IMG/VR virus record: IMGVR_UViG_3300027295_000004
Length of the DNA: 64,000 nucleotides
Direction: 5' to 3' (one strand)
From: a virus
Taxonomy: Duplodnaviria > Heunggongvirae > Uroviricota > Caudoviricetes
Below the pieces are notes generated by a model that saw nothing but the letters and a program-made list of their open reading frames with translations, had not been told where the DNA came from and did no database searches. A program made the translations under genes and the position numbers. Positions 1 to 27,013 of this stretch are shown piece after piece (within the stretch, counting starts at the first letter, position 1; each line of letters opens with the position of its first letter).

Positions 1-275
1 CCTACTTTCTCTGGTGACCCTTTCAGGGATGTGAGCGAGTTGTTGTGACAATAGAAACTTCCACCTACTTTCTCTGGTGCCCCTTCCAAGGAAGCGAGAG
101 AGTTGTTGTGGCAAAAGAAATGACCCTCTACTTTCTCTGGTGCTCCTTCTAAGGAAGTGAGGGAGTTGTAGGAGCAATAGAAATATCCCTTCACTATCAC
201 ATCTTCCAAGAAATCTGGCAATCGGTCTAGGTACAAATCACTAAGATCGACATTTCCTTGAATCGCTTTGATCAT
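1..275 (-). CDS. LRR-like repeat protein paralog (partial; N-terminal portion, continues beyond window start)
   Basis: Start codon is the reverse complement of cat at 273-275 (MIKAIQGNVDLSDL...); same repeat units as the downstream copies. Confidence 0.6.
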   Translation of the reverse strand, partial: MIKAIQGNVDLSDLYLDRLPDFLEDVIVKGYFYCSYNSLTSLEGAPEKVEGHFFCHNNSLASLEGAPEKVGGSFYCHNNSLTSLKGSPEKV

Positions 276-298
276 ACAATACTATAGATTAGGGCGTC

Positions 299-865
299 TT
301 AGGCATCAAGGATATAAACTTTCCCTTTGATCTTAGATACTTTTCTGATTTCCTCTTCTGTGAAATGGATCTCTTTTGCAAAAGAGATATAAAGATCTTC
401 ACCAATCTCTTTAGGTAAACCTTCTAAGGAAGTGAGGGGGTTGTAGGGGCAATAGAAATACCCACCTACTTTCTCTGGTGCTCCTTTCAGGGAAGTGAGA
501 GAGTTGTAGGGGCAATAGAAACCACTTCCTACTTTCTCTGGAGCACCTTTCAGGGATGTGAGAGGGTTGTAGGTGCAAGAGAAATCACGACCTACTTCCT
601 TTGGTGCTCCTTCTAAGGAAGTGAGGGAGTTGTTGTGGCAAGAGAAATCACCACCTACTTTCTCTGGTGCTCCTTCCAAGGAAGTGAGAGAGTTGTAGGA
701 GCAATAGAAATCACGACCTACTTCCTTTGGTGCTCCTTCCAAAGATGTGAGAGAGTTGTCGTTGCAAGAGAAATCACCCTTCACTATCACATCTTCCAAG
801 AAATCTGGTAGTTTCTCGAGGTACAAACTCCTAAGATCGACATCTTCTTGAATCACTTTTGGCAT
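299..865 (-). CDS. LRR-like 22-aa repeat protein paralog (188 aa)
   Basis: ORF carrying six repeats of xNSLTSLEGAPxxVG[GR]xFxC; conserved N- and C-terminal caps. Confidence 0.7.
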   Translation of the reverse strand: MPKVIQEDVDLRSLYLEKLPDFLEDVIVKGDFSCNDNSLTSLEGAPKEVGRDFYCSYNSLTSLEGAPEKVGGDFSCHNNSLTSLEGAPKEVGRDFSCTYNPLTSLKGAPEKVGSGFYCPYNSLTSLKGAPEKVGGYFYCPYNPLTSLEGLPKEIGEDLYISFAKEIHFTEEEIRKVSKIKGKVYILDA

Positions 866-888
866 ACAATACTATAGCTTCGGGCGTC

Positions 889-1329
889 TTAGGCTTCACT
901 GATATAAACTTTCCCTTTGATCTTAGATACTTTTCTAATTTCCTCTTCTGTGAAATAGATTCCTTTTGCAAAAGAGATCCAAAGATTTCCACCAATCTCT
1001 TTAGGTAGGCCTTCTAAGGAAGTGAGAGAGTTATGGTCGCAATAGAAATCACGACCTACTTTCTTTGGAGCTCCTTCCAAGGAAGTGAGAGAGTTGTTGT
1101 AGCAATAGAAACTTCCACCTACTTTCTCTGGTGCTCCTTCCAAAGATGTGAGGGAGTTGTTGGAGCAAAAGAAATGCCCACCTACTTTCTTTGGTGCTCC
1201 TTCCAAGGATGTGAGGGAGTTGTTGTGGCAAGAGAAATCACCCTTCACTATCACATCTTCCAAGAAATCTGGTAGTTTCTTGAGGTACAAATCACTAAGA
1301 TCGACATTTCCTTGAATCGCTTTGATCAT
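889..1329 (-). CDS. LRR-like repeat protein paralog (146 aa)
   Basis: Paralog with four repeats. Confidence 0.7.
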   Translation of the reverse strand: MIKAIQGNVDLSDLYLKKLPDFLEDVIVKGDFSCHNNSLTSLEGAPKKVGGHFFCSNNSLTSLEGAPEKVGGSFYCYNNSLTSLEGAPKKVGRDFYCDHNSLTSLEGLPKEIGGNLWISFAKGIYFTEEEIRKVSKIKGKVYISEA

Positions 1330-1352
1330 ACAATACTATAGCTTAGGGCGTC

Positions 1353-1856
1353 TTAGGCATCAAGGATATAAACTTTCCCTTTGATCTTAGATACTTTTCT
1401 GATTTCCTCTTCTGTGAAATGGATCTCTTTTGCAAAAGAGATATAAAGATTTCCGCCGATCTCTTTAGGTGCTCCTTCCAAGGAAGTGAGAGAGTTGTTG
1501 TGGCAAAAGAAATTACCACCTACTTTCTCTGGTGCTCCTTCTAAGGATGTGAGAGAGTTGTTGTAGCAAGAGAAATCACCGCCTACTTTCTCTGGTGACC
1601 CTTTCAGGGATGTGAGCGAGTTGTTGTGACAATAGAAACTTCCACCTACTTTCTCTGGTGACCCTTTCAGGGATGTGAGCGAGTTGTTGTGACAATAGAA
1701 ACTTCCACCTACTTTCTCTGGTGCCCCTTCCAAGGAAGCGAGAGAGTTGTTGTGGCAAAAGAAATGACCCTTCACTATCACATCTTCCAAGAAATCTGGT
1801 AATCGGTCTAGGTGCAAAGCACTAAGACTGACATCTCCTTGGATCACTTTTGGCAT
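1353..1856 (-). CDS. LRR-like repeat protein paralog (167 aa)
   Basis: Paralog; internal near-identical 66-bp repeats at 1576-1705. Confidence 0.7.
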   Translation of the reverse strand: MPKVIQGDVSLSALHLDRLPDFLEDVIVKGHFFCHNNSLASLEGAPEKVGGSFYCHNNSLTSLKGSPEKVGGSFYCHNNSLTSLKGSPEKVGGDFSCYNNSLTSLEGAPEKVGGNFFCHNNSLTSLEGAPKEIGGNLYISFAKEIHFTEEEIRKVSKIKGKVYILDA

Positions 1857-1879
1857 ACAATACTATAGCTTCGGGCGTC

Positions 1880-2257
1880 TTAGGCTTCACTGATATAAAC
1901 TCTCCATTTGATCTTGGATACTTTTCTAATTTCCTCTTCTGTGAAATAGATTCCTTTTGCAAAGGAGATATAAAGATCTCCACCGATCACTTTAGGTAGA
2001 CCTTCTAAGGATGTGAGAGAGTTGTTGGAGCAATTGAAATCACTGCCTACTTTCTCTGGTGCCCCTTTCAGAGTAGTGAGAGAGTTGTATTCGCAATAGA
2101 AACCACCACCTACTTTCTTTGGAGCCCCTTCCAAGGAAGTGAGAGAGTTGTTGCAGCAAAAGAAATCACCCTTCACTATCACATCTTCCAGAAAATCTGG
2201 TAGTTTCTCGAGGTACAAATCACTAAGATCGACATCTTCTTGAATCACTTTTGGCAT
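1880..2257 (-). CDS. LRR-like repeat protein paralog (125 aa)
   Basis: Paralog with three repeats. Confidence 0.7.
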   Translation of the reverse strand: MPKVIQEDVDLSDLYLEKLPDFLEDVIVKGDFFCCNNSLTSLEGAPKKVGGGFYCEYNSLTTLKGAPEKVGSDFNCSNNSLTSLEGLPKVIGGDLYISFAKGIYFTEEEIRKVSKIKWRVYISEA

Positions 2258-2280
2258 ACAATACTATAGATTAGGGCGTC

Positions 2281-2721
2281 TTAGGCTTCAATGATATAAA
2301 CTCTCCCTTTAATATTTGACACTTTTCTTATCTCTTCTTCCGTGAAATAGATTCCTTTTGCAAAGGAGATATAAAGATCTTCACCAATCTCTTTAGGTAG
2401 GCCTTCCAAGGAAGTGAGAGAGTTGTAGGAGCAAAAGAAATACCCACCTACTTCCTTTGGGGCTCCTTCTAAGGATGTGAGAGAGTTGTAGGGGCATAAG
2501 AAACTTCCACCTACTTCCTTTGGTGCTCCTTCTAAGGATGTGAGAGAGTTGTTGTGGCAATAGAAATCACCACCTACTTTCTTTGGAGCACCTTTCAGGG
2601 ATGTGAGAGAGTTGTAGGGGCAATAGAAATCACCCTTCACTATCACATCTTCCAAGAAATCTGGTAGTTTCTCGAGATGCAAACTCCTAAGATCGACATC
2701 TTCTTGAATCACTTTTGGCAT
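2281..2721 (-). CDS. LRR-like repeat protein paralog (146 aa)
   Basis: Paralog. Confidence 0.7.
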   Translation of the reverse strand: MPKVIQEDVDLRSLHLEKLPDFLEDVIVKGDFYCPYNSLTSLKGAPKKVGGDFYCHNNSLTSLEGAPKEVGGSFLCPYNSLTSLEGAPKEVGGYFFCSYNSLTSLEGLPKEIGEDLYISFAKGIYFTEEEIRKVSNIKGRVYIIEA

Positions 2722-2744
2722 ACAATACTATAGCTTAGGGCGTC

Positions 2745-3248
2745 TTAGGCATCAAGGATATAAACTTTCCCTTTGATCTTAGATACTTTTCTAATTTCCT
2801 CTTCTGTGAAATAGATTCCTTTTGCAAAAGAGATCCAAAGATTTCCACCAATCTCTTTAGGTAGGCCTTCTAAGGAAGTGAGAGAGTTATGGTCGCAATA
2901 GAAATCACGACCTACTTTCTTTGGAGCTCCTTCCAAGGAAGTGAGAGAGTTGTTGTAGCAATAGAAACTTCCACCTACTTTCTCTGGTGCTCCTTCCAAA
3001 GATGTGAGGGAGTTGTTGGAGCAAAAGAAATGCCCACCTACTTTCTTTGGTGCTCCTTCCAAGGATGTGAGGGAGTTGTTGGAGCAATAGAAATGCCCAC
3101 CCACTTCCATTGGTGCTCCTTCCAAAGATGTGAGAGAGTTGTTGGTGCAATAGAACTCACCCTTTACTATCACATCTTCGAGAAAATCTGGCAATCGGTC
3201 TAGGTGCAAACTCCTAAGATCGACATCTTCTTGAATCACTTTTGGCAT
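2745..3248 (-). CDS. LRR-like repeat protein paralog (167 aa)
   Basis: Paralog; 2745-3060 is nearly identical to 889-1200. Confidence 0.7.
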   Translation of the reverse strand: MPKVIQEDVDLRSLHLDRLPDFLEDVIVKGEFYCTNNSLTSLEGAPMEVGGHFYCSNNSLTSLEGAPKKVGGHFFCSNNSLTSLEGAPEKVGGSFYCYNNSLTSLEGAPKKVGRDFYCDHNSLTSLEGLPKEIGGNLWISFAKGIYFTEEEIRKVSKIKGKVYILDA

Positions 3249-3271
3249 ACAATACTATAGCTTAGGGCGTC

Positions 3272-3898
3272 TTATTCTTCAAGGATATAAACATACTCTT
3301 TGATCTTAGATACTTTTCTAATTTCCTCTTCTGTGAAATAGATTCCTTTTGCAAAAGAGATCCAAAGATTTCCACCAATCTCTTTAGGTAGGCCTTCTAA
3401 GGAAGTGAGAGAGTTGTAGCACGAGAAATCACCGCCTACTTTCTCTGGAGCACCTTTCAGGGAAGCCAGAGAGTTGTTGTAGCAATAGAAATCACCACCT
3501 ACTTCCATTGGTGACCCTTCTAGAGAAGTGAGAGGGTTTTGGTCACAAAAGAAATCGCCTTCTACTTTCTCTGGAGCACCTTCCAAGGAAGTGAGAGAGT
3601 TGTTGTAGCAATGGAAACTGCCTCCTACTTTCTCTGGTGCTCCTTTCAGGGAAGTCAGAGAGTTGTTGTAGCAATGGAAATAACGTCCTACTTCCTTTGG
3701 CGCCCCTTTCAGAGAAGTGAGGGAGTTGTTGGTGCAAGAGAAATGACCTTCTACTTTCTCTGGCGCCCCTTCCAAGGATGTGAGGGAGTTGTTGTAGCAA
3801 AGGAAATTACCCTTCACTATCACATCTTCCAAGAAATCTGGCAATCGGTCTAGGTACAAAGCACTAAGATCGACGTTTTCTTGAATCACTTTGATCAT
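3272..3898 (-). CDS. LRR-like repeat protein paralog (208 aa)
   Basis: Paralog with seven repeats. Confidence 0.7.
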   Translation of the reverse strand: MIKVIQENVDLSALYLDRLPDFLEDVIVKGNFLCYNNSLTSLEGAPEKVEGHFSCTNNSLTSLKGAPKEVGRYFHCYNNSLTSLKGAPEKVGGSFHCYNNSLTSLEGAPEKVEGDFFCDQNPLTSLEGSPMEVGGDFYCYNNSLASLKGAPEKVGGDFSCYNSLTSLEGLPKEIGGNLWISFAKGIYFTEEEIRKVSKIKEYVYILEE

Positions 3899-3921
3899 AC
3901 AATACTATAGATTAGGGCGTC

Positions 3922-4299
3922 TTATTCTTCAATGATATAAACTCTCCCTTTGATCTTGGATACTTTTCTGATTTCCTCTTCTGTGAAATGGATCCCTTTT
4001 GCAAAAGAGATCCAAAGAATTCTACCAATCTCTTTAGGTAAACCTTCTAAAGATGTAAGTTTGTTGTCGTGGCAAAAGAAATTACCACCTACTTTCTCCG
4101 GTGCTCCTTCTAAGGATGTGAAAGAGTTGTAGGGGCAATAGAAATTACCACCTACTTTCTTTGGAGCCCCTTCTAAGGATGTGAGAGAGTTGTTGCCGCA
4201 AAAGAAATCACCCTTCACTATCACATCTTCCAAGAAATCTGGTAGTTTCTCGAGGTACAAATCACTAAGATCGACATCTCCTTGGATCACTTTGATCAT
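3922..4299 (-). CDS. LRR-like repeat protein paralog (125 aa)
   Basis: Paralog. Confidence 0.7.
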   Translation of the reverse strand: MIKVIQGDVDLSDLYLEKLPDFLEDVIVKGDFFCGNNSLTSLEGAPKKVGGNFYCPYNSFTSLEGAPEKVGGNFFCHDNKLTSLEGLPKEIGRILWISFAKGIHFTEEEIRKVSKIKGRVYIIEE

Positions 4300-4334
4300 A
4301 CAATACTATAGCTTAGGGCGTAGTCGATCTCAAC

Positions 4335-4835
4335 TTATACATTGATGATTCTGCCTTTAATATTTGACACTTTTCTAATTTCCTCCTTCGTGAAATAGAT
4401 CCCTTTAGCAGAAGAGATATAAAGATCTTCACCAATCTTTTTAGGTAATCCTTCTAGTGAAATGAGAGGATTGTAAATACAACTGAAATTTCCTCCTACT
4501 TCCTCTGGAGCACCTTCTAAGGAAGTGAGAGAGTTATAAGAGCAATCAAAATATCCATATACTTTGGCTGGAGCTCCATTTAGGGTCTTGAGACTGTTAT
4601 ATGTACAGTTGTAATTTCCACCTACTTTCTCTGGGGCTCCTTCTAAGGATGTGAGGGAGTTGTTGTAGCAATAGAAACCACGACCTACTTTCTCTGGAGC
4701 ACCTTCTAGAGAGGATAGGAAGTTGAAAGCGCAATGGAACATGCCATGTACAACCATAACCTCTTTCATGAAGTCTGGTATTTTAGTGATGTATAATTTA
4801 CTAACATTAACACTTCCATGAATTTCTTTCGACAT
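4335..4835 (-). CDS. Divergent LRR-like repeat protein paralog (166 aa)
   Basis: Same repeat architecture at lower identity; the upstream spacer differs. Confidence 0.65.
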   Translation of the reverse strand: MSKEIHGSVNVSKLYITKIPDFMKEVMVVHGMFHCAFNFLSSLEGAPEKVGRGFYCYNNSLTSLEGAPEKVGGNYNCTYNSLKTLNGAPAKVYGYFDCSYNSLTSLEGAPEEVGGNFSCIYNPLISLEGLPKKIGEDLYISSAKGIYFTKEEIRKVSNIKGRIINV

Positions 4836-4850
4836 ATAAAAATATTCGGA

Positions 4851-5480
4851 TTACCGGTCCTTAATATATTTAACAAACCCTCGGATTTTCGACCGTTTCC
4901 TAATTTCTGTTTCTGGGAAAAATTCTTTCAATTTCAAAGGAATATAAAAATCTTCGCCAATTTCTGATGGTATGCCCTCTAATGAAACCAGAGGATTGTC
5001 AATGCATGAAAATGAATATTTTACTATTCTCGGTGCACCTTTCAAAGAGGTGAGATTGTTGTTATAGCAATAGAAATCCCCACCTACTCTCTTAGGAGCT
5101 CCCTCTAGTGTAGAAAGTTTATTATCATTGCAATAGAAAATCCCATCTACTTCATCGGGGGCTCCTTCTAATGACACGAGTGAGTTAATACCACAATCGT
5201 AATCTGTCCCTACTTCTATTGGACCTCCTTCTAGAGTAGTGAGAGAGTTGCAAGAGCAGTCAAAGGATCCTTTTACTTTCTCGGGGCCTCCTTTTAATGA
5301 TTTAAGCCTATTTGAATAACAATCAAATGTTTGTACTACTCTTGGGCTATTCTCTAATGTATAAAGATAATTTTCTATACATGAAAACATCCCATTGACT
5401 ACAGCACCATTGAGAAATTCCGGCAATTTAAAAAGAACCAATTCATCAAGAATTACATTGCCGTTAATAACCTTCTCCAT
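4851..5480 (-). CDS. Most divergent LRR-like repeat protein paralog (209 aa)
   Basis: NxLxSLxGxPxxVxGxFxC repeats retained; C terminus IRKRSKIRGFVKYI resembles the family cap. Confidence 0.6.
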   Translation of the reverse strand: MEKVINGNVILDELVLFKLPEFLNGAVVNGMFSCIENYLYTLENSPRVVQTFDCYSNRLKSLKGGPEKVKGSFDCSCNSLTTLEGGPIEVGTDYDCGINSLVSLEGAPDEVDGIFYCNDNKLSTLEGAPKRVGGDFYCYNNNLTSLKGAPRIVKYSFSCIDNPLVSLEGIPSEIGEDFYIPLKLKEFFPETEIRKRSKIRGFVKYIKDR

Positions 5481-5510
5481 AGTATATTATAAATCAGTGC
5501 TCTCTATTCA

Positions 5511-5846
5511 TCAAGCGTTATATTCGTCATTCCATCGTTTGATTTGTGACTCTCGAAAGATATTAGTACTTTTGACTAAGTTTAGGAACTGAGGCCAATT
5601 CTCCTTTGGTCTTTTGCTCTGTGCTAAATAGTCTACTGCTTTTGCTAATACGTATTCGTGTGCAGTTGGTTCGGGTGGAATAACGGCTGGATCGTGGTCG
5701 TACCACTTATACCCACAATTGCTACACTGACCTTTTGGTTCGCCCATCGAATCACAAATGAATGGATCTTCTACGTAGTTCTTACAATTTGTCTTCATTG
5801 TGTTGCTTGGGCTTTTCCCAAAAGACAATAAAGTCTTCCGCGGCAT
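5511..5846 (-). CDS. Hypothetical Cys-rich (zinc-ribbon-like) protein
   Basis: ORF containing CDS..CSNCGYKW; overlaps the next ORF by 65 nt in a different frame. Confidence 0.4.
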   Translation of the reverse strand: MPRKTLLSFGKSPSNTMKTNCKNYVEDPFICDSMGEPKGQCSNCGYKWYDHDPAVIPPEPTAHEYVLAKAVDYLAQSKRPKENWPQFLNLVKSTNIFRESQIKRWNDEYNA

Positions 5847-5985
5847 CTACCCCATCTTGAAATTTATCCCAATACTCTGCACCATATTCTTTTTCATTCT
5901 TTTCGACATAAACGGCAACCATCCGTTCGATCAAATGGAAAAAATGGTTCTTTTTAAATTTACTGTCTAAAGTGCTGGACTCCAT
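5782..5985 (-). CDS. Hypothetical small protein
   Basis: ORF only. Confidence 0.3.
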   Translation of the reverse strand: MESSTLDSKFKKNHFFHLIERMVAVYVEKNEKEYGAEYWDKFQDGVDAAEDFIVFWEKPKQHNEDKL

Positions 5986-5990
5986 ACTTC

Positions 5991-6848
5991 TTACTTGATC
6001 ATTTTTTTGATTTTCTCGAATGCCTCATTTTGGCGAGGAATAATTTCAGTCTCGTAAACCTTCGCAAATTCTTCGGAATTTTTAAAGTAGTACACATTAT
6101 CAAAAGAAACCATTCCAAGGTTCTCCCCATCACGGGTGACCTTATATTTCTCGCTCTGGATGAAGTCAACGATATATTGTTTATACTTTTCAACTGGCGC
6201 CCGGTTTTGTTTGCCTTTGATTTGCACAATGGTCTTTGAGGATGGTGGGGAGAGTTCCATAGTAACGTGAGGATTATTACCTCGATCCCATAGGCTGATG
6301 ATTGAAGTTGGCTTGACTTTGTACGATTCATTTTTCGCACAGTGGCCCATTGACTCTCCCTCATATTGACACACCTTTGCGGTAAGAGCACCGATGATCT
6401 TATGTCCGTTTTCAAACACATGGATCACCTTATAGTCGACACCCTCGACCAATTGATTCTTATCGACAGACGCCCCGGAGTTAGCCATCTGCTCGTCCCA
6501 GACTTCAATCTCATTGCAGTAGATATCTTCTGGAGTCTTCTTGTAGAGCTTCGACAAATATTTTTCATCTTTGGTCAAGAGGAAGTCGCACACATGAAGA
6601 AGGAAATCAATGCGACCATTATCATATACCACGACATAAGCATTCTTTTTCCAATCCTCGTCGCCTTTCGCTGGATTGTATTTACGTACAATGTTTTGCA
6701 ATTCATGTCGGCACATTTCGCCGGAACTTTCGAAGAAGCGCTTCTCCGCCTTGACCAGCCATTGAGTGATCACTTCATTGTCAATGCCTTTGATTTTGGT
6801 GACTTTATTAACTGCTTCGATGATTGGCTCGATTGAGATAAGATTCAT
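5991..6848 (-). CDS. Hypothetical protein (285 aa)
   Basis: Long ORF; no recognisable motif. Confidence 0.5.
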   Translation of the reverse strand: MNLISIEPIIEAVNKVTKIKGIDNEVITQWLVKAEKRFFESSGEMCRHELQNIVRKYNPAKGDEDWKKNAYVVVYDNGRIDFLLHVCDFLLTKDEKYLSKLYKKTPEDIYCNEIEVWDEQMANSGASVDKNQLVEGVDYKVIHVFENGHKIIGALTAKVCQYEGESMGHCAKNESYKVKPTSIISLWDRGNNPHVTMELSPPSSKTIVQIKGKQNRAPVEKYKQYIVDFIQSEKYKVTRDGENLGMVSFDNVYYFKNSEEFAKVYETEIIPRQNEAFEKIKKMIK

Positions 6849-9294: not shown

Positions 9295-9370
9295 TGGTAG
9301 CCACGGTCGGACTCGAACCGACACTCTACGGATTTTAAGTCCGTTGCCTCTGCCATTGGACTACGTGGCC
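9295..9370 (-). tRNA. tRNA with anticodon UAA (Leu-type), but with a 4-nt variable loop (class I architecture)
   Basis: Minus strand: ggccacg-ta-..-acgga-cttaaaa-tccgt-agag-tgtcg-ttcgagt-ccgac-cgtggct-a-cca. Confidence 0.55.
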
Positions 9371-10051: not shown

Positions 10052-10354
10052 TCAATCTGACGATTTCGTCAGCGGCCTCCACCCGACATTCATGCAGAAG
10101 TATTTAACGCCATTGACCACTACAGCATCGCCAATTGATACCGAACGCAACGGACGATACTCTCTCGCGATCGCAGCCCATTCCTCACTTAGTGCATCTT
10201 CGGGTGCATTAGTAATGGCAAATGCAGCTTCGCAAGCGTCTTCTCCATCATATTTGGCAGGAAGATTAAACTCAAATTCCTGCGTCACAATCTGGTAGTC
10301 TCTTTGATTTTCTTCGTAGACTTTGTTGTTGAGAATGATGCGGATGTTTGTCAT
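10052..10354 (-). CDS. Hypothetical protein (100 aa)
   Basis: ORF. Confidence 0.4.
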   Translation of the reverse strand: MTNIRIILNNKVYEENQRDYQIVTQEFEFNLPAKYDGEDACEAAFAITNAPEDALSEEWAAIAREYRPLRSVSIGDAVVVNGVKYFCMNVGWRPLTKSSD

Positions 10355-10384
10355 GTTATATTATAATAGTGGGTTGTGTTTTAA

Positions 10385-10756
10385 TCAATCCTCATCTTCT
10401 GTTTCTTCGTCGACAGCTTCATTTGTGATTTCTTGCATGTCATCGTCATCAGTAACGAGGTATGAGTACGGGTCCATAAAGGTTACCATCATGAATTTAA
10501 GATCTGGCATTGCATCTCGAAGCCATTCAAAGAATGGATGGCGACGATACTTACTTTCTTTTAGGGTTTGTGGATCACAATAGAGTGTTCCTGTTTCAGC
10601 AAGATGGTTAATAAATTTGCGAGACATTTCATCTCGACCAATTGTCGGCACTGGATCGAAAATGGTGTAAGCAAATTCGCCATTTACCTTTTGACCGAGA
10701 TAACGAAATGCGTTATCGACACCGTCTCTAGCATAATCAACAGGATCGTATTTCAT
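10385..10756 (-). CDS. Hypothetical protein with acidic C terminus (123 aa)
   Basis: ORF. Confidence 0.45.
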   Translation of the reverse strand: MKYDPVDYARDGVDNAFRYLGQKVNGEFAYTIFDPVPTIGRDEMSRKFINHLAETGTLYCDPQTLKESKYRRHPFFEWLRDAMPDLKFMMVTFMDPYSYLVTDDDDMQEITNEAVDEETEDED

Positions 10757-17282: not shown

Positions 17283-18074
17283 TCAAGCAGCCAGATTAAG
17301 TCGTTTGAAGTTGTTTTTCTTTACCATATCATATACACCGTATCTGTCGAGGATGAGGCGTTCAAGGATTTCGATATCATGGGCATCCTCGAAATTCCAA
17401 AGCATCTTTGAGATGACAGGGCACTCTGCAATGAAAAGATCCCGGATGGCTTCTGCTACTTCACGGCATTCTTTTTGTGTAGTCTTGTATAGGCGTTTGT
17501 TGAGTGTCGTAATCCAATCTCGCACTTTGCCATTGAAGACAATCTTTGTCTGTGTTGCCTCTGGCATCACCATTCGTGCACATTCCTTCGCTACTCCATT
17601 CTTAATGAGTTCCTGGTATAGCTCTCGTGTTTGGTTGAGATGATCTTCAATCGCTTCTGACGCATGTCTACTCTCATCTGTATACATATCATCTGCACTC
17701 TTAAACAATACTGGATTGATGAGATCCGTCGATGATTGCCTATTGTTAGTGCATTGCGCTCTAATCTCGATTGGTTCGAATTCAGAGACTGCCTTATATC
17801 GCTGGCTGAGCTCTTGTGGTTGAAGACTCCAATGACGAAGTAGTTCCCGACCGATTGCTCTGCTGGTGATGATTTCGATACCCAAGTTTGCCATTGCGAA
17901 TACCGACCAATGACCTTCTCGGAGACAATGCCTTAGGAGCTTGTGCGGCTCCGTAAACAGTTCATTGACTTCTCTTGAAGAGGAGATTCTAGCAATCCCG
18001 ACAAGGATCTCATCGATGCTCTTGTCTGTGAATTCGGCGACGCCTGTTGTTTTTGTTACAAGTCTGACTTCCAT
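17283..18074 (-). CDS. thyX: Flavin-dependent thymidylate synthase
   Basis: ThyX signature LLRHWSLQPQELSQRY (RHRx7S/SQRY-type) and GHWSVFAMA. Confidence 0.8.
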   Translation of the reverse strand: MEVRLVTKTTGVAEFTDKSIDEILVGIARISSSREVNELFTEPHKLLRHCLREGHWSVFAMANLGIEIITSRAIGRELLRHWSLQPQELSQRYKAVSEFEPIEIRAQCTNNRQSSTDLINPVLFKSADDMYTDESRHASEAIEDHLNQTRELYQELIKNGVAKECARMVMPEATQTKIVFNGKVRDWITTLNKRLYKTTQKECREVAEAIRDLFIAECPVISKMLWNFEDAHDIEILERLILDRYGVYDMVKKNNFKRLNLAA

Positions 18075-18124
18075 GAATTAATATAAAATAGGGTTATGTG
18101 TGAATCAACAGTTTTTATCATACA

Positions 18125-18982: not shown

Positions 18983-19951
18983 TTATTTGTTGATTGGGAA
19001 TTTCCAAACAGCATCCGAACCCGAACCGATCTTCACGAGTTTGTTTTCCTTATTGAGCTTGTAAAGCATCTGCCGAGCATATGCTTCGCTGACATTCAGT
19101 TCTTGAACCACGCGATCGATCGTAATGTTCGGCGGTTCCTTCATAGAAAGGATCTGGTCTTCCTTGCGTGATTTTTTCGATTTCGCGGACGCGGTAGTGA
19201 ATGCAGACATATCAGCGAGCGCAGACAAATCGTATCCGCTTGGACTGATTCTCAACACACCACTATACGGGGTACCATAACGGTTTTTCGAGGTTTGGAT
19301 GTCTCGATGATCATCAGATTCATCATTGATGCTGATTGCGATATTACAATCAACCGCATGAGTAATCACAGTGCTTCCTTTGAAGTTTCCGTTTTTGGTT
19401 TGATGGAGGATGATACCAACCGCACATTCGCTCTCTTTGGCTGCGGAGACGATTTTGTTAATTGCGTCCGCATCTCCCATGCGCTTATCATCGAATTGAA
19501 GTGTAGCAAAGCTGTCGACGATCAGAAAGTCCATTTGCTTCATCATCTTGCAGATTTCTTCCACATCCGTCTCGTGACATACTTGAACGGATTTCAAACC
19601 CAACCGGCGGCAGCTGTACGCGAGCATCGTGGTAGTTTCTTCACCAGTCACGTATCCCGCTTCATATCCTTGATCGGCGAGAGCCTCGCAGATTTGAAGC
19701 ATCAGCGTAGTCTTACCAACTCCTGCGGCGGCGGATAGAGTGAATACCATGCCCGGAAGGATTCCCTCACCACCAAAAAGTTTATCAACCACTTCAATGC
19801 CTGTGTGCATCCGACGGAAGAACACATCAGGAATTTTGATTTCAGAAACACGAACCATGCTGGACTTTTGATAACTAAGCTTCATATATTGTTTGTTTGT
19901 GTTTGGTGTTTGATTACTCTTTAATATGGATGTGGGTTGTGCTGCAATCAA
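18983..19951 (-). CDS. RecA-superfamily ATPase (DnaB-C/KaiC/RadA-like) with a C-terminal HTH-like region
   Basis: Walker A AAGVGKTT and Walker B FLIVDS; C-terminal ITIDRVVQELNVSEAYARQMLYKL. Confidence 0.6.
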   Translation of the reverse strand: MIAAQPTSILKSNQTPNTNKQYMKLSYQKSSMVRVSEIKIPDVFFRRMHTGIEVVDKLFGGEGILPGMVFTLSAAAGVGKTTLMLQICEALADQGYEAGYVTGEETTTMLAYSCRRLGLKSVQVCHETDVEEICKMMKQMDFLIVDSFATLQFDDKRMGDADAINKIVSAAKESECAVGIILHQTKNGNFKGSTVITHAVDCNIAISINDESDDHRDIQTSKNRYGTPYSGVLRISPSGYDLSALADMSAFTTASAKSKKSRKEDQILSMKEPPNITIDRVVQELNVSEAYARQMLYKLNKENKLVKIGSGSDAVWKFPINK

Positions 19952-24965: not shown

Positions 24966-25042
24966 GGGGGTGCATGTACTAAGGCTAGCGAGACTGATTT
25001 GCAATCAGACTGTTGTGGGTTCGATTCCCACCATCTCCACCA
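24966..25042 (+). tRNA. tRNA (anticodon probably UGC, Ala); D-arm pairing is poor
   Basis: Acceptor gggggtg/catctcc-a-cca; T-arm gtggg-ttcgatt-cccac; anticodon loop tttgcaa. Confidence 0.45.
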
Positions 25043-25046
25043 ATTT

Positions 25047-25139
25047 GGATGATTAAGCAGACAAGCGTGCTGCATCTGTTTGGAAGACAGATTGATCTAG
25101 TGATCCTAGGTTGGGGTGCAAGTCCTCATTCATCCGCCA
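25047..25139 (+). tRNA. tRNA-Ser (GGA), class II, with a non-canonical T-loop TGCAAGT
   Basis: Acceptor ggatgat/ttcatcc-g-cca; anticodon tctgt-ttggaag-acaga; long variable arm; D-loop lacks GG. Confidence 0.55.
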
Positions 25140-25145
25140 CTTTCT

Positions 25146-25221
25146 GGTGTTGTATTTTAATCGGCAAATTGCTATCCTGTCACGATAGATGATGCGGGTT
25201 CGAATCCCGTCAGCACCGCCA
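25146..25221 (+). tRNA. tRNA-Asp (GUC)
   Basis: Acceptor ggtgttg/cagcacc-g-cca; anticodon ctatc-ctgtcac-gatag; T-arm gcggg-ttcgaat-cccgt. Confidence 0.65.
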
Positions 25222-25227
25222 ATTTAT

Positions 25228-25320
25228 GGGTAGCTAAACAGACAAGCGCGCTGTAACCGCCTTGAAAGCGGATTGATCTAGTGATCCTAGGTTGGGGTGC
25301 AAGTCCTCAGTTACCCGCCA
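25228..25320 (+). tRNA. tRNA-Ser (UGA), class II, non-canonical T-loop TGCAAGT
   Basis: Acceptor gggtagc/gttaccc-g-cca; anticodon loop cttgaaa. Confidence 0.55.
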
Positions 25321-25464
25321 ATTAAGCATCAACTATCCACACTTTATGAGGAAATCCTCACAAGCTATCCCTTATATGGCTCTGGTCAAACATGGGCTTG
25401 TGCATGTTTGTAGATGATAACAGTGCTCACTGGAAAATAGCTAACTCTTAGTGGAGCACATTTC

Positions 25465-25538
25465 GGTCTTTTAGTTTAATGGTAAAACGACGCACTTGTA
25501 ATGCGTTGATTCCGGTTCGACTCCGGACAGGACCTCCA
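25465..25538 (+). tRNA. tRNA-Thr (UGU)
   Basis: ggtcttt-ta-gttt-aatggta-aaac-g-acgca-cttgtaa-tgcgt-..-tccgg-ttcgact-ccgga-caggacc-t-cca. Confidence 0.65.
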
Positions 25539-25547
25539 TTTCTTTTT

Positions 25548-25623
25548 ACGTGCTAATGTCCCAAGGCAGGCGAGTTGGACTCCAAATCCGACTGGGTCAG
25601 TTCGATTCTGACAGCACGTGCCA
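25548..25623 (+). tRNA. tRNA-Trp (CCA)
   Basis: Acceptor acgtgct/agcacgt-g-cca; anticodon ttgga-ctccaaa-tccga; T-arm gtcag-ttcgatt-ctgac. Confidence 0.55.
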
Positions 25624-25628
25624 ATTTC

Positions 25629-25702
25629 GGCCTATTAGTTTAGTGGTAAAACAATTTACTCGTAATGAATAGTCCCCAGCTCAATTCTGGGATAGGCCTC
25701 CA
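25629..25702 (+). tRNA. tRNA-Thr (CGU)
   Basis: Acceptor ggcctat/ataggcc-t-cca; anticodon attta-ctcgtaa-tgaat. Confidence 0.6.
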
Positions 25703-25708
25703 TCTTAT

Positions 25709-25785
25709 GCGGTTGTAGCTCAATTTGGTAGAGCGCATCCTTGCCAAGGATATTGTCGCAGGTTCGAATCCTGTCAGCCGCACCA
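25709..25785 (+). tRNA. tRNA-Gly (GCC)
   Basis: Canonical: gcggttg-ta-gctcaatttggtagagc-..ttgccaa..-gcagg-ttcgaat-cctgt-cagccgc-a-cca. Confidence 0.7.
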
Positions 25786-25787
25786 AT

Positions 25788-25880
25788 GGGTAGTTAAGCA
25801 GACAAGCGTACTGCAACCGTCTCGAAAGCGGATTGATCTAGCGAACCTAGGTTGGGGTGCAAGTCCTCAGCTACCCGCCA
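25788..25880 (+). tRNA. tRNA-Ser (CGA), class II, non-canonical T-loop TGCAAGT
   Basis: Acceptor gggtagt/gctaccc-g-cca; anticodon loop ctcgaaa. Confidence 0.55.
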
Positions 25881-25888
25881 TTTTATAT

Positions 25889-25962
25889 GGTCCTTTAGCA
25901 TAATGGTAATGCATCGGATTTTGATTCCGACTATGATGGTTCAATTCCATCAGGGACTTCCA
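25889..25962 (+). tRNA. tRNA-Gln (UUG)
   Basis: D gcat-aatggta-atgc; anticodon tcgga-ttttgat-tccga; T gatgg-ttcaatt-ccatc. Confidence 0.6.
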
Positions 25963-25972
25963 ATTTCTTTTG

Positions 25973-26047
25973 GCTCGAATAGCACAATGGTGAGTGTATT
26001 TCCTTGGTATGGAAGGGATGTGGGTTCGATTCCCACTTTGAGCCCCA
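25973..26047 (+). tRNA. tRNA-Thr (GGU)
   Basis: Acceptor gctcgaa/tttgagc-c-cca; anticodon tttcc-ttggtat-ggaag. Confidence 0.55.
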
Positions 26048-26050
26048 CAC

Positions 26051-26122
26051 GCCTCTGTAATTCAAAAGTAGAATGGTTGTTTCATAAGCAACACGGTGAA
26101 GGTGCAAGTCCTTCCGGAGGTA
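26051..26122 (+). tRNA. tRNA-Met/Ile2 (CAU), non-canonical T-loop TGCAAGT, D-loop without GG; CCA not encoded
   Basis: gcctctg-ta-attc-aaaagta-gaat-g-gttgt-ttcataa-gcaac-acggt-gaagg-tgcaagt-ccttc-cggaggt-a. Confidence 0.5.
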
Positions 26123-26131
26123 CTAATTTAT

Positions 26132-26800
26132 ATGCCAAACACTGCAATTTTATTCACAGGAAACGTACACGGTGACACCATTGATGTTCTAATTGAACAG
26201 ACCAAAAATCAGACAAATAAAATAGCATCAATATGGGAAAATGAATCACCTGAATATGTCGACAAATTAAAAAACAACAATTTTAAAATCATTTACAATA
26301 GTGTAAAACAACAAGAAATATATAAACCACAGTTTATTACTGTACATAATGGGTTGAAGTATCTTAAAGAAAACGGATATGAATATGTATTAAGGACTCG
26401 TTTTGATATACTATGTCAAGATTATGATAGATATTTAGAGATACTGGCGAAGTCGTATCGCGAAAAGCTAACAGCTATCGCTGGCATAGAGACATCTACC
26501 ACTTATTTTTTAGATATTATTATAGGTGGGAAAATTGATGAGATGCTTAAATTTTTCGCATTGCAGCCAAACTATGATGTTAGGTACTATGAAAAATTTT
26601 TAATAGAAAATTACTCAAATAAAACAAATCTAACTAAAGAAGAAATAAGAAATATATTGAATTTCTCGTTAAGTGATTGTGTCAATAACAACATTGAATT
26701 CATATGGTACAGGCCAATTTCGTGGAAGTCGCAAACGATCACGTGGCCAGACATGAGAGTAATTAATGAGTATTGCAAAAATAATTTTATCTGGATGTAG
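26132..26800 (+). CDS. Hypothetical protein (223 aa) encoded by a markedly AT-rich ORF inserted within the tRNA array
   Basis: ORF 26096-26800 trimmed to the ATG at 26132 to clear the tRNA; K/N/I/Y-rich composition unlike flanking DNA; its stop overlaps the 5' end of tRNA-Pro. Confidence 0.45.
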   Translation: MPNTAILFTGNVHGDTIDVLIEQTKNQTNKIASIWENESPEYVDKLKNNNFKIIYNSVKQQEIYKPQFITVHNGLKYLKENGYEYVLRTRFDILCQDYDRYLEILAKSYREKLTAIAGIETSTTYFLDIIIGGKIDEMLKFFALQPNYDVRYYEKFLIENYSNKTNLTKEEIRNILNFSLSDCVNNNIEFIWYRPISWKSQTITWPDMRVINEYCKNNFIWM

Positions 26801-26867
26801 TTCAGCTTGGTAGAACATTTGATTTGGGATCAAAAGGTCGTGGGTTCGAATCCCACCATCCAGACCA
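26791..26867 (+). tRNA. tRNA-Pro (UGG)
   Basis: ctggatg-ta-gttc-agcttggta-gaac-a-tttga-tttggga-tcaaa-aggtc-gtggg-ttcgaat-cccac-catccag-a-cca. Confidence 0.65.
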
Positions 26868-26870
26868 ATT

Positions 26871-26878
26871 TATAAATA
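26871..26878 (+). promoter_or_regulatory. TATAAATA motif (T4-late-promoter-like) between tRNA-Pro and the second tRNA-Met
   Basis: Exact match. Confidence 0.25.
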
Positions 26879-26924
26879 AACAAGTTGATAACAACACAAC
26901 CACGTGTTAATATTAACTACACAT

Positions 26925-26999
26925 TGCGGGATAGAGCAGTAGTAGCTCAACTGGCTCATAACCAGGAGGTCGGTGGTGCAAGTCCATCTCCCGCAACCA
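26925..26999 (+). tRNA. tRNA-Met/Ile2 (CAU), second copy, non-canonical T-loop TGCAAGT, D-loop agtagta
   Basis: tgcggga-ta-gagc-agtagta-gctc-..-ctcataa-..-ggtgg-tgcaagt-ccatc-tcccgca-a-cca. Confidence 0.5.
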
Positions 27000-27013
27000 A
27001 TTTCAACATATGT

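What the first reader, a model, noticed from the sequence alone, without database searches (positions are those of the whole stretch)
1..5480. Tandem array of 12 LRR-like repeat-protein paralogs with identical 23-nt spacers
Eleven complete and one partial co-oriented genes encode proteins built from 3 to 8 copies of a 22-aa unit (xNSLTSLEGAPxxVGGxFxC, LRR-like) capped by near-identical N- and C-terminal modules. The genes are separated by an identical 23-nt spacer, and the two distal copies are progressively more divergent. This is the architecture expected of a recombination-driven variable gene family (copy and repeat-number variation), not of ordinary phage paralogs. Candidate roles include receptor binding or host range, injected effectors, or anti-defence decoys.
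Basis: seen in the sequence. Interest (0 to 1): 0.8.

Follow-up and report, generated by a model that had tools for sequence, protein, structure and literature searches.

The report
Variable LRR gene array in phage
A roughly 195-kb uncultivated freshwater phage carries a back-to-back array of 13 small genes (10 and a half lie in this window), each encoding a leucine-rich-repeat binding protein with a different predicted binding surface; the array gains and loses genes by recombination and is linked to a neighbouring PcfJ-like gene of unknown function.

Summary
The window holds 10 complete genes and 1 partial gene on the minus strand, not 11 plus 1. The repeat unit is 21 aa, not 22. The 23-nt spacer is near-identical, with 3 variants.

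The spacer carries a sigma-70-like promoter (TTGAnG, 17 nt, TATAGT, 5 nt, ATG). A related phage keeps this geometry with a different spacer sequence.

Otherwise identical genomes carry 9-gene or 13-gene arrays.

New lead: a PcfJ-like gene lies just upstream. PcfJ-LRR fusion proteins are common in bacteria, and PcfJ also occurs fused to ankyrin repeats and to DGR variable regions.

Best model: the genes are interchangeable target-recognition subunits that work with PcfJ, probably early and inside the cell. The target and the biochemistry are unknown.

The parts
1..275 (-). Gene 11 of the array, 5' part only (start codon at 275-273). The full gene is 188 aa in L008.
   Evidence: Frame-2 translation MIKAIQGNVDLSDLYLDRLPDFLEDVIVKG.... 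L008 completes it.
276..298 (-). 23-nt spacer carrying the -10 box TATAGT, 5 nt before the ATG. The -35 box TTGATG lies at 304-309, in the last codons of gene 10.
299..865 (-). Gene 10, a 188-aa LRR protein with 6 units
866..888 (-). 23-nt spacer with TATAGT. The -35 position reads GTGAAG, a weaker match.
889..1329 (-). Gene 9, a 146-aa LRR protein with 4 units. It shares a 325-nt exact tract with gene 5.
1330..1352 (-). 23-nt spacer and promoter (TTGATG, 17 nt, TATAGT, 5 nt, ATG)
1353..1856 (-). Gene 8, a 167-aa LRR protein with 5 units. It shares a 345-nt exact tract with gene 11. The breakpoint of the 9-gene allele lies in nt 58-138 of this gene.
1857..1879 (-). 23-nt spacer with TATAGT. 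The -35 position reads GTGAAG.
1880..2257 (-). Gene 7, a 125-aa LRR protein with 3 units
2258..2280 (-). 23-nt spacer and promoter (TTGAAG, 17 nt, TATAGT, 5 nt, ATG)
2281..2721 (-). Gene 6, a 146-aa LRR protein with 4 units. This gene was modelled: pLDDT 96.3.
2722..2744 (-). 23-nt spacer and promoter
2745..3248 (-). Gene 5, a 167-aa LRR protein with 5 units
3249..3271 (-). 23-nt spacer and promoter
3272..3898 (-). Gene 4, a 208-aa LRR protein with 7 units. This gene was modelled: pLDDT 96.2.
3899..3921 (-). 23-nt spacer and promoter
3922..4299 (-). Gene 3, a 125-aa LRR protein with 3 units
4300..4334 (-). 35-nt spacer containing a whole promoter: TTGAGA, 17 nt, TATAGT, 5 nt, ATG
4335..4835 (-). 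Gene 2, a divergent 166-aa LRR paralog with 5 units
4836..4850 (-). 15-nt spacer with no promoter match of this class. Gene 2 is probably co-transcribed with gene 1.
4851..5480 (-). Gene 1, the most divergent LRR paralog, 209 aa with 7 units
5481..5514 (-). Promoter-like site in front of gene 1: TTGATG, 17 nt, TATAAT, 5 nt, ATG. The geometry matches the spacers but the sequence is unrelated.
5511..5985 (-). Two small ORFs between the PcfJ-like gene and the array (called as 95 aa and 67 aa). The 67-aa ORF is conserved in relative L100, where it is 64 aa.
5991..6848 (-). PcfJ-like protein, 285 aa, with conserved E..MGHC, PHVT.E and Q.KGK.N motifs. It is the proposed partner of the LRR proteins.
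   Evidence: Pfam PF14284, E 1.9e-6, 28.2 bits against a cut-off of 25. Fusions and synteny.

Best explanation
The locus is a tandem multigene family: 13 genes in the full genome, of which 10 complete and 1 partial lie in the window. Each gene encodes a small (125-212 aa) cytoplasmic protein with no signal peptide. The protein is almost entirely a cysteine-ladder leucine-rich-repeat solenoid with minimal N- and C-caps.

Shown:
- The fold is an LRR solenoid.
- Within each 21-aa repeat, five positions (x in V-G-x-x-F-x-C-x-x-N) are hypervariable and rich in Tyr, Ser, His, Asp and Asn. The scaffold is under purifying selection. Each paralog therefore presents a different surface.
- Every 23-nt spacer, together with the last codons of the preceding gene, matches a sigma-70-type promoter ending 5 nt before the ATG.
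- The array changes by homologous recombination between paralogs, giving 9-gene and 13-gene alleles, 5-unit and 7-unit alleles, and mosaic identity tracts.
- A PcfJ-like gene lies immediately upstream in this phage and in its relatives. The same PcfJ domain is fused to this LRR type, to another LRR type, to ankyrin repeats and to DGR variable regions in other organisms.

Inferred:
- The hypervariable positions line the concave binding face.
- Each gene is transcribed on its own as a leaderless or near-leaderless mRNA by host RNA polymerase, which implies early expression.
- The LRR proteins are interchangeable target-recognition subunits that dock, through their conserved caps, onto the PcfJ-like protein. 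PcfJ is the constant module and its activity is unknown. Together they give the phage a germline-encoded repertoire of binders, reshuffled by recombination.
- The targets are variable host molecules, most likely intracellular host proteins such as defence or takeover targets.
For: Fold:
- AlphaFold2 gave pLDDT 96.3 and 96.2 with pTM 0.90.
- phmmer against the PDB hits InlJ (E 4e-12), SspH2 (1.9e-11), SspH1, IpaH and YopM.

Hypervariable positions:
- Entropy is 1.0-2.6 bits at positions 15, 16, 18, 20 and 21, against 0 at N1, L6, G8, P10, V13, F17 and C19.
- pN/pS is 1.32 at those five positions and 0.18 at the scaffold.
- The same positions vary in two independent arrays, L013 and L065.

Promoter:
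- The pattern TTGA-N19-TANNNT-N5-ATG occurs 11 times in the window, against 0.46 expected. Eight of these are in the array and three sit in front of unrelated genes.
- Relative L100 keeps TTGATC, 17 nt, TATAGT, 5 nt, ATG with a different spacer sequence.
- No Shine-Dalgarno sequence was seen upstream of any of the 42 window genes examined.

Recombination:
- Exact tracts of 345 nt and 325 nt link non-adjacent paralogs. The 9-gene allele joins gene 8 to gene 12 inside an 81-nt shared tract.
- The flanks are identical over 9 kb or more.
- Arrays in relatives differ.

PcfJ link:
- Pfam hit to the window gene.
- PcfJ-LRR fusions P0158 and P0183.
- 12 of 77 bacterial LRR loci and 8 of 150 top family representatives carry PcfJ.
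- P0262 is a head-to-tail fusion of a window-like PcfJ protein with an array-type N-cap.
- A second PcfJ gene lies next to a solitary LRR gene in the same phage (L021).
- PcfJ is fused to ankyrin repeats in P0284 and to another LRR type in P0283.
- PcfJ-like motifs lie upstream of DGR variable regions in CPR bacteria (PMC5758913).

Location:
- The array sits in a 22-kb block of small genes, all on one strand, about 40 kb from the tail-fibre-like genes.
Against: - There is no expression, interaction or phenotype data of any kind.
- The PcfJ-like domain has no known activity and no solved relative by sequence.
- Docking of the LRR proteins onto PcfJ in trans is inferred only from fusions and gene neighbourhood.
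- Other arrays of this LRR subtype (L013, L016, L018, L065) have no PcfJ gene within 8-12 kb, so the link is not universal.
- Promoter matches are consensus matches only. Early timing is inferred from the promoter type.
- Members of the same LRR subtype are also fused to a portal protein plus an ADP-ribosyltransferase-like region (P0211) and to lectin domains (P0229). These point to virion-associated roles for some members.
- The 9-gene and 13-gene alleles come from short-read assemblies. No reads were available to confirm the junctions.
Confidence: 0.5

Rival explanations
1. The LRR proteins are accessory adhesins or host-range determinants attached to the virion. In this reading they dock on the tail or baseplate through their conserved caps, and their variable faces bind different cell-surface glycans or proteins. 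The array would widen or shift host range.
For: - The variable residues are rich in Tyr, Ser, Asp, Asn and His, as in surface-binding paratopes.
- Family members are fused to ConA-like lectin domains (P0229) and to a portal protein (P0211).
- DGR-diversified proteins of phages are receptor-binding proteins (established knowledge of Bordetella phage BPP-1 Mtd), and PcfJ occurs in DGR targets.
- LRR domains are reported in likely host-recognition fibres of phage Goslar.
Against: - The array lies in a block of small genes carrying sigma-70-like promoters, about 40 kb from the tail-fibre-like genes at 44-64 kb.
- The proteins have no recognisable virion-attachment domain, only LRR caps.
- Thirteen different small monomeric adhesins would be unusual.
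Confidence: 0.2
2. The LRR proteins are stand-alone stoichiometric inhibitors or decoys of host defence or housekeeping proteins, and act independently of the PcfJ-like protein. Adjacency to PcfJ would reflect only a shared accessory-gene island.
For: - LRR is a general protein-binding scaffold.
- The location and promoters look early.
- Other arrays of this subtype have no PcfJ gene nearby.
- Gene number varies between nearly identical genomes, as expected for arms-race genes.
Against: - PcfJ-LRR synteny holds across relatives whose PcfJ is only 54-80% identical.
- Fusions are frequent, including one direct PcfJ-to-N-cap join.
- There is no PADLOC match, although PADLOC holds defence proteins rather than anti-defence proteins, so the test is weak.
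Confidence: 0.2
3. The array is a neutral or selfish amplification, or an assembly artefact. In this reading the repeated DNA has expanded by slippage and unequal crossing-over with no function for the individual copies, or was built wrongly by assemblers.
For: - Contigs break inside the array at the 325-nt and 345-nt exact repeats.
- One contig (L021) joins the array to a distant locus.
- The copy-number alleles come from short-read assemblies.
Against: - All 13 reading frames are intact. Scaffold pN/pS is 0.18 with pS 0.37, which indicates long-standing purifying selection.
- The sequence is 100% identical across independent JGI and ENA assemblies.
- The 9-gene junction crosses only an 81-nt shared tract, shorter than the k=141 of those assemblies, so junction-spanning k-mers should come from real molecules (inference about the assembler).
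- Relatives keep arrays at the same position.
Confidence: 0.05
4. The repeats are diversified by a diversity-generating retroelement (DGR), that is, by adenine-directed mutagenic retrohoming from a template repeat.
For: - Hypervariable codons are almost all NNT or NNC, with variation confined to the first two bases. This is what mutagenesis of AAY template codons would produce.
- PcfJ-like domains occur in DGR target proteins.
Against: - Many adenines in scaffold codons never vary: AAC at position 1, and GAA/AAA, CCA, GTA and ACA elsewhere. This breaks the DGR rule that every template adenine is mutable.
- Third-base invariance is also seen at many scaffold codons.
- No reverse transcriptase was found among the window ORFs that were scanned.
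- Variation is spread over about 50 units in 13 genes rather than sitting in one variable region.
Confidence: 0.02

Closest known systems
LRR domains of the bacterial type III effectors SspH1/SspH2, SlrP, IpaH and YopM
   Same: - Short (20-22 aa) bacterial-type LRR with LxxLxVxxNxLTSLPxLP-like units and a non-helical convex side.
- These are the best sequence and Foldseek matches.
- In IpaH and SspH the LRR is the substrate-recognition module for a constant catalytic domain. That is the logic proposed here for PcfJ plus LRR.
   Different: - There is no NEL E3-ligase domain. The proteins end 27 aa after the last repeat.
- Any partner would be a separate PcfJ-like protein.
- The context is a phage, not a type III secretion system.
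- The Cys at core position 19 is not typical of IpaH or YopM.
Internalin J (InlJ) and the Listeria internalin multigene family
   Same: - 21-residue LRR with a cysteine ladder (LxxLxCxxNxLT).
- Internalins are also tandem paralog families.
   Different: - There is no signal peptide, internalin N-cap, Ig-like inter-repeat domain or cell-wall anchor.
- The proteins are far smaller.
- They are phage-encoded and presumably cytoplasmic.
Viral multigene families and poxvirus 'genomic accordions' (ASFV MGF360/505, poxvirus K3L amplification, giant-virus ankyrin/FNIP/LRR families such as CroV FGxxFN LRRs, PMC9525666)
   Same: - Tandem paralog arrays in a large DNA virus.
- Copy number changes by recombination between nearly identical genomes.
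- The proteins are repeat-protein binders thought to act at the host interface.
   Different: - Those are viruses of eukaryotes.
- Here the virus is a tailed phage, the genes are about 0.5 kb each with their own compact promoters, and repeat number within genes also varies.
- No link to a PcfJ-like partner is known for those families.
DGR variable proteins and lamprey variable lymphocyte receptors (VLRs)
   Same: - Diversified binding surfaces on a constant scaffold.
- VLRs use LRR concave-face positions and assemble cassettes by recombination.
- Some DGR targets carry an N-terminal PcfJ-like domain.
   Different: - No reverse transcriptase or adenine mutagenesis signature.
- No somatic assembly.
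- Diversity is germline: many genes, reshuffled by ordinary homologous recombination.
PcfJ-like (PF14284) modular proteins
   Same: The window's upstream gene is a member. Relatives fuse this domain to the same LRR subtype, to another LRR type and to ankyrin repeats.
   Different: In this phage lineage the PcfJ-like protein and the LRR modules are separate genes. The function of PcfJ itself, first seen on Enterococcus plasmid pCF10, is unknown.

Membership tests
Leucine-rich repeat (LRR) superfamily | Tandem units of 20-30 aa with the core LxxLxLxxN/CxL | tested here: met
   21-aa units. F17, C19, N1' and L3' fill the L4, L6, N9 and L11 positions. N1, L6, G8, P10, F17 and C19 are invariant in 29 units.
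Leucine-rich repeat (LRR) superfamily | Curved solenoid with one short parallel beta-strand per repeat | tested here: met
Leucine-rich repeat (LRR) superfamily | Match to a Pfam LRR model above its gathering score | tested here: not met
   LRR_4 scores 14.7-17.4 bits against a cut-off of 27. Some longer homologs carry precomputed PF12799 hits. This is an operational criterion, not a structural one.
IpaH/SspH/SlrP NEL effectors | C-terminal novel E3 ligase (NEL) domain after the LRR | tested here: not met
   NCBIfam and PDB matches cover the LRR part only. The proteins end in a 27-aa cap.
IpaH/SspH/SlrP NEL effectors | Delivery by a type III secretion system into eukaryotic cells | not testable with these tools
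   The host is unknown and the context is a phage.
Internalins | Signal peptide, internalin N-cap, Ig-like inter-repeat domain, surface anchor | tested here: not met
   The N-terminus MPKVIQEDVDL... is not hydrophobic. No further domains were found. Only the cysteine-ladder LRR is shared.
DGR variable proteins | Nearby reverse transcriptase and a template repeat, with variation at template adenines only | tested here: not met
   Invariant adenine-containing scaffold codons. No reverse transcriptase among the window ORFs scanned. The rest of the genome was not examined.
Recombination-driven viral multigene family ('accordion') | Tandem paralogs whose number differs between near-identical genomes | tested here: met
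   9-gene and 13-gene arrays with 100% identical flanks. Gene 13 has 170-aa and 212-aa alleles. Relatives carry different arrays. Caveat: these are short-read assemblies.
Recombination-driven viral multigene family ('accordion') | Copy-number change is adaptive under host pressure | not testable with these tools
   Needs experiments or time-series read data.
PcfJ-like plus binder modular proteins | PF14284 domain and a repeat-type binding domain in one polypeptide | tested here: not met
   In the window they are separate genes about 500 nt apart. Fused versions exist elsewhere.
PcfJ-like plus binder modular proteins | Conserved linkage of PcfJ with this LRR subtype | tested here: met
   Synteny in L100 and L102-L105. 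A second PcfJ-LRR locus in the same phage. 12 of 77 bacterial LRR loci are fusions.

The most novel reading that the evidence does not exclude
The phage carries a two-part targeting system that has not been described before. One constant PcfJ-like module, whose activity is unknown, is directed to many different targets by a germline library of interchangeable LRR recognition subunits. The phage reshuffles this library by unequal recombination, changing gene number, repeat number and creating chimeric paralogs. Functionally this would be a phage counterpart of DGR or VLR-type binder diversification. It would also assign a role both to the uncharacterised PcfJ family and to a very large, unannotated LRR subtype.
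Probability: 0.3. Interest if true: 0.85.

Novelty: new variant of a known kind. Interest (0 to 1): 0.7.

Why it matters
Phage genomes are usually compact, and tandem families of a dozen paralogs are rarely described in them. In this case the variable residues, the recombination tracts, the per-gene promoters and the population-level alleles are all visible in sequence. That makes the locus a tractable example of how a virus of bacteria can keep and reshuffle a repertoire of binding proteins.

The LRR subtype is very large: 26,368 clusters at 50% identity with E at or below 1e-3, and 14,133 at or below 1e-10. Pfam hardly captures it. It recurs as tandem arrays in other large phages and in MAG contigs.

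The recurrent pairing with PcfJ-like domains gives a testable handle on two families of unknown function. These small, stable, cysteine-ladder LRR scaffolds, with naturally diversified faces, could also be useful as binder scaffolds.

Tried and rejected
Searches that found nothing or little:
- Near-identity search of INPHARED phages with window 1-6000: no match.
- IMG/VR scans with the LRR alignment, the spacer pattern and the PcfJ protein: nothing usable.
- The single JGI metagenome scan returned only a 1.2-kb fragment.
- tblastn of the 871-aa protein and of PcfJ against cultured phages: no match.
- The RNA ligase is at most 33% identical to any cultured phage, so there is no cultured relative.
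- Vibrio phage TDDLMA shares only a single LRR gene and is not a relative.
- PADLOC: no hit for the LRR or PcfJ proteins.
- PDB profile search with PcfJ: nothing significant.
- Six literature searches aimed at phage LRR arrays found no description of them.

Explanations rejected:
- DGR mutagenesis, because scaffold adenines are invariant.
- A read-through polyprotein, because each gene is shifted by 23 nt into another frame.
- Plus-strand ORFs of 40-104 aa inside the array: I treat these as by-products of the repeat.
- An apparent 144-aa variant of gene 2 in L005 is only a different start-codon call; the DNA is 100% identical.
- The apparent 0.2% divergence of L002 is alignment run-on past the recombination junction, not strain divergence.

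- Model coordinates are not exposed, so solvent exposure of the variable residues could not be measured.

Full report
**1. What is in the window**

The region 1-5480 carries, on the minus strand, ten complete ORFs and one ORF cut by the window edge.
- The complete ORFs are 299-865, 889-1329, 1353-1856, 1880-2257, 2281-2721, 2745-3248, 3272-3898, 3922-4299, 4335-4835 and 4851-5480.
- They encode proteins of 188, 146, 167, 125, 146, 167, 208, 125, 166 and 209 aa.
- The cut ORF occupies 1-275.

Tandem Repeats Finder reports a 63-nt period throughout the region. Each protein has three parts:
- an N-terminal module of about 35 aa (MPKVIQEDVDLxxLxLxKLPDFLEDVIVKGxFxC) that itself looks like an LRR;
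- 3-7 units of 21 aa (N-S-L-T-S-L-E-G-A-P-x-x-V-G-G-x-F-x-C-x-x);
- a 27-aa C-terminal module (FAKGIYFTEEEIRKVSKIKGKVYILDA).

Eight intergenic spacers are exactly 23 nt and come in three variants that differ at two positions. The other two spacers are 35 nt and 15 nt. The core observation stands.

**2. Source and full extent of the array**

The window matches JGI contig Ga0255137_1000001 (195,888 bp) at 100% identity over the 13.2 kb compared. The same phage turns up in dozens of JGI and ENA assemblies as contigs of 193-196 kb.

The window also carries 29 tRNA genes, ribonucleotide reductase, DNA and RNA ligases and tail-fibre-like genes. No cultured phage is close: the RNA ligase is at most 33% identical to any, and there is no near DNA match.

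Locus L008 overlaps the left end of the window at 100% identity over 1,553 nt and extends the array. The complete array has 13 genes of 209, 166, 125, 208, 167, 146, 125, 167, 146, 188, 188, 125 and 170 aa, spanning about 6.7 kb. The JGI contig ends exactly where a 345-nt tract shared by genes 8 and 11 ends. Other contigs end at a 325-nt tract shared by genes 5 and 9. The repeats, in other words, break the assemblies.

**3. Fold**

AlphaFold2 models of the 146-aa and 208-aa paralogs have mean pLDDT 96.3 and 96.2 and pTM 0.90. Short strands recur every 21 residues, and each model ends in a strand-helix-strand cap.
- Foldseek agrees. Its best viral match is a "Leucine-rich repeat" protein of an uncultured Caudovirales phage, TM 0.75.
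- By sequence the nearest solved proteins are InlJ (E 4e-12), which has a cysteine ladder, and SspH2 (E 1.9e-11).
- Pfam LRR models stay below threshold.
- No extra domain was found by Pfam, PHROGs, NCBIfam or PADLOC.

These are therefore cap-only LRR solenoids.

**4. Where the paralogs differ**

Across 29 internal units of the eight similar genes, positions 1, 6, 8, 10, 13, 17 and 19 never vary. Positions 16, 18, 20, 21 and, less so, 15 carry 1.0-2.6 bits of entropy.

In the canonical LRR register (LxxLxLxxN, with F17 as L4, C19 as L6 and the next N as N9), these five positions are x2, x3, x5, x7 and x8. Established LRR structural knowledge places those residues, solvent-exposed, on the concave sheet where ligands bind. 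DSSP puts a strand at F17-x18.

At positions 16, 18, 20 and 21, 85% of residues are Tyr, Ser, His, Asp or Asn (counted). Mean pairwise pN/pS is 1.32 at the five variable positions and 0.18 at the scaffold, where pS is 0.37. This is not a formal selection test. It does show a constrained scaffold and a freely or adaptively changing face. The same positions vary in two unrelated arrays of this subtype.

**5. The spacer is a promoter**

The consensus scan finds TTGA[A/T]G, 17 nt, TATAGT in front of most array genes. The -35 hexamer lies in the last codons of the preceding gene, and the -10 hexamer ends 5 nt before the ATG.

The exact pattern TTGA-N19-TANNNT-N5-ATG occurs 11 times in the 64-kb window, against 0.46 expected; none of 100 shuffles reached 11.
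- Seven occurrences are at array spacers.
- One is in front of gene 1, in unrelated sequence.
- Three are in front of unrelated genes, at 10352, 18072 and 35352.

Two spacers have GTGAAG at the -35 position, and gene 2 has no such site. None of the 42 window genes I examined has a recognisable Shine-Dalgarno sequence.

In the related phage L100, LRR genes are preceded by TTGATC, 17 nt, TATAGT, 5 nt, ATG, with a different sequence between the hexamers. Conservation of the geometry but not the sequence argues that it is functional.

The inference is that each gene can be transcribed separately by a sigma-70-type holoenzyme, with a start at or next to the ATG, giving a leaderless mRNA. In most phages that promoter type means early expression. 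None of this is shown experimentally.

**6. Recombination and variation**

*Within the array.* Paralogs are generally about 82-87% identical in DNA, yet genes 8 and 11 share 345 identical nucleotides and genes 5 and 9 share 325. The edge genes (1, 2, and the 3' end of 13) are much more divergent than the central ones. That is the usual pattern in arrays homogenised by unequal exchange.

*Between assemblies.* Three ENA contigs (L002, L004, L020; 193.3-193.9 kb) cross the whole array and have nine genes. Their eighth gene has the first 138 nt of gene 8 followed by the rest of gene 12. The join lies within an 81-nt tract common to both, and about 2 kb is missing.
- Up to the junction these contigs are 100% identical to the window over 9-11 kb.
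- The shared tract is shorter than the k-mer of those assemblies (k141).
- The 9-gene form lacks both long exact repeats, which would explain why it assembles without a break.
- On these grounds I judge it a real allele rather than an artefact. Only reads can prove this.

*Other variants.*
- Gene 13 occurs with 7 units (212 aa) and, with two different breakpoints, 5 units (170 aa).
- Contig L021 (162 kb) joins gene 5 to a different LRR gene with another C-cap, followed by unrelated genes. This is either a 31-kb deletion variant or a chimera.

**7. Relatives**

I used the PcfJ-like protein as an anchor to fetch syntenic loci with the order RNA ligase, 350-aa gene, small genes, PcfJ.
- L100 (PcfJ 80% identical) carries at least 6 LRR genes of 103-139 aa after PcfJ.
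- L102-L105 (PcfJ 54% identical) carry LRR genes of 217, 107, 268, 155-194, 164/167 and 163 aa, interspersed with a few other genes. The LRR genes differ between these contigs by indels.

**8. The wider family**

A profile of the array proteins finds 26,368 cluster representatives (50% identity) at E no greater than 1e-3, and 14,133 at E no greater than 1e-10. The word-indexed search gave more than 5,889 hits, almost all unnamed.

Tandem arrays of the same unit type, with different caps, occur elsewhere:
- a JGI contig, L013, with six genes;
- the 735-kb megaphage LR756501, with four in a row and 14 places in the genome;
- a contig binned as Ca. Muiribacterium, with ten genes.

The subtype is also truly bacterial. 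It is found in a closed Victivallales chromosome next to arginyl-tRNA synthetase and MalQ, and in Ca. Enterousia next to ClpB and RNase E. The C-cap motif FTEEE[IV]R..[CS]..KG.[IV] is shared across these proteins.

**9. The PcfJ link**

The gene 500 nt upstream of the array (5991-6848, same strand) is a PcfJ-like protein: PF14284, 28.2 bits against a cut-off of 25. I scanned long family members for extra domains and found two with an N-terminal PcfJ domain.

An HMM built from three PcfJ domains gave the following:
- it finds the domain in the same ORF as the LRRs in 12 of the 77 bacterial loci, which had been fetched only for their LRR match;
- it finds the domain in 8 of the top 150 family representatives;
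- it finds a second PcfJ-like gene in this same phage, two genes downstream of the solitary LRR gene in L021.

P0262 is a direct fusion. A protein 37% identical to the window PcfJ along its whole length, C-terminal tail included, runs straight into an N-cap (LKELPDFSDIIVKGLFNC) like those of the array. Other PcfJ proteins end in a different LRR type (P0283) or in ankyrin repeats (P0284). A survey of diversity-generating retroelements notes target genes with a PcfJ-like motif upstream of the variable region (PMC5758913).

The recurring design is a constant PcfJ module joined to a variable binding module. In this phage lineage the two are separate genes, and the binding module is multiplied. PcfJ has invariant residues (E163, H169, C170, D188, H194, T196, E198 and others) but no solved relative by sequence and no known activity.

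**10. Interpretation**

Shown:
- an LRR solenoid family with a hypervariable face on a constrained scaffold;
- a promoter-like site for each gene;
- mosaic identity tracts and structural alleles;
- conserved linkage with PcfJ.

Inferred:
- separate, early, leaderless expression;
- cytoplasmic location, based on the lack of a signal peptide;
- action together with PcfJ as alternative recognition subunits;
- variable host molecules as targets.

I favour intracellular host proteins as the targets, for two reasons. The promoters are of the sigma-70 class, and the array lies in the small-gene block far from the tail genes. A virion-associated role cannot be excluded, however. Members of the subtype are fused to a portal protein plus an ADP-ribosyltransferase-like segment (R...STS...ExE by eye in P0211) and to lectin domains.

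DGR mutagenesis was considered because the variable codons are NNT or NNC. I rejected it because scaffold adenines never vary.

**11. Novelty and score**

The fold and the general idea of viral multigene families are known. Three things I did not find described in six targeted full-text searches:
- a tailed phage with a 13-gene array of cap-only LRR binders that is reshaped by recombination;
- a compact promoter for each gene;
- the PcfJ-LRR pairing.

I rate this a new variant of a known kind, with interest 0.7. It would rank higher if the two-part targeting model holds.

Noticed in passing
window 24966-33311 and 9295-9370: 29 tRNA genes. Twenty-eight lie in a plus-strand cluster interrupted by a few ORFs. 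One is an unusually long (96-nt) predicted tRNA-Ile(tat), at 27014-27109.
   Followed up: no
whole window, for example 10352-10388, 18072-18108, 35352-35388: None of the 42 genes examined has a Shine-Dalgarno sequence. Many have a -10-like hexamer 3-6 nt before the ATG, and several have a full TTGAnn, 17 nt, TAnnnT, 5 nt, ATG arrangement. This suggests widespread leaderless transcripts and a host that translates them.
   Followed up: partly
window 44488-63992, minus strand: A probable tail-fibre or host-recognition module. It includes a 2,490-aa protein with an NHL repeat (55325-62797), a 757-aa protein with a weak, below-threshold match to a pectate-lyase-like adhesive domain, and a 389-aa protein with a ConA-like lectin domain. 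The 871-aa protein has no homolog in cultured phages.
   Followed up: partly
window 18983-19951, minus strand: A 322-aa KaiC/RecA-like P-loop ATPase with weak matches to nSTAND NTPases and to PADLOC mad8 (E 6e-6).
   Followed up: no
L021 11233-12975 (ENA ERZ27251628, 162-kb contig): Array gene 5 switches after three units into a different LRR paralog (C-cap NNTVKFTEEQVRAVCDVKGRIFA). An 81-aa gene and a second PcfJ-like gene (308 aa) follow. The contig is about 31 kb shorter than the others. It is either a large deletion produced by recombination between LRR genes or a chimeric assembly.
   Followed up: partly
L013 8001-12858; L065 895-8991; L018 8986-12531: Independent tandem arrays of the same 21-aa LRR unit with other cap domains. 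There are six genes in a JGI contig, ten in a contig binned as Ca. Muiribacterium halophilum, and four in the 735-kb megaphage LR756501. A DUF5661 gene lies near the LRR genes in both L013 and L021.
   Followed up: partly
protein P0211 (1,200 aa): A phage portal domain (PF06381), followed by a segment with an ADP-ribosyltransferase-like R / S-x-S / E-x-E pattern (read by eye), followed by this LRR subtype with the same C-cap. This suggests a capsid-packaged, possibly ejected, LRR-targeted enzyme in another phage.
   Followed up: no
window 573-4345, plus strand: Antisense ORFs of 40-104 aa run through the array (for example 2889-3203 and 3539-3853). They follow the repeat period and look like by-products of the repeat rather than genes.
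   Followed up: no
window about 22660: A divergent transcription switch. All genes from 1 to 22659 are on the minus strand and genes from 22675 on are on the plus strand. Promoter-like TAATATATTA motifs face both ways.
   Followed up: no
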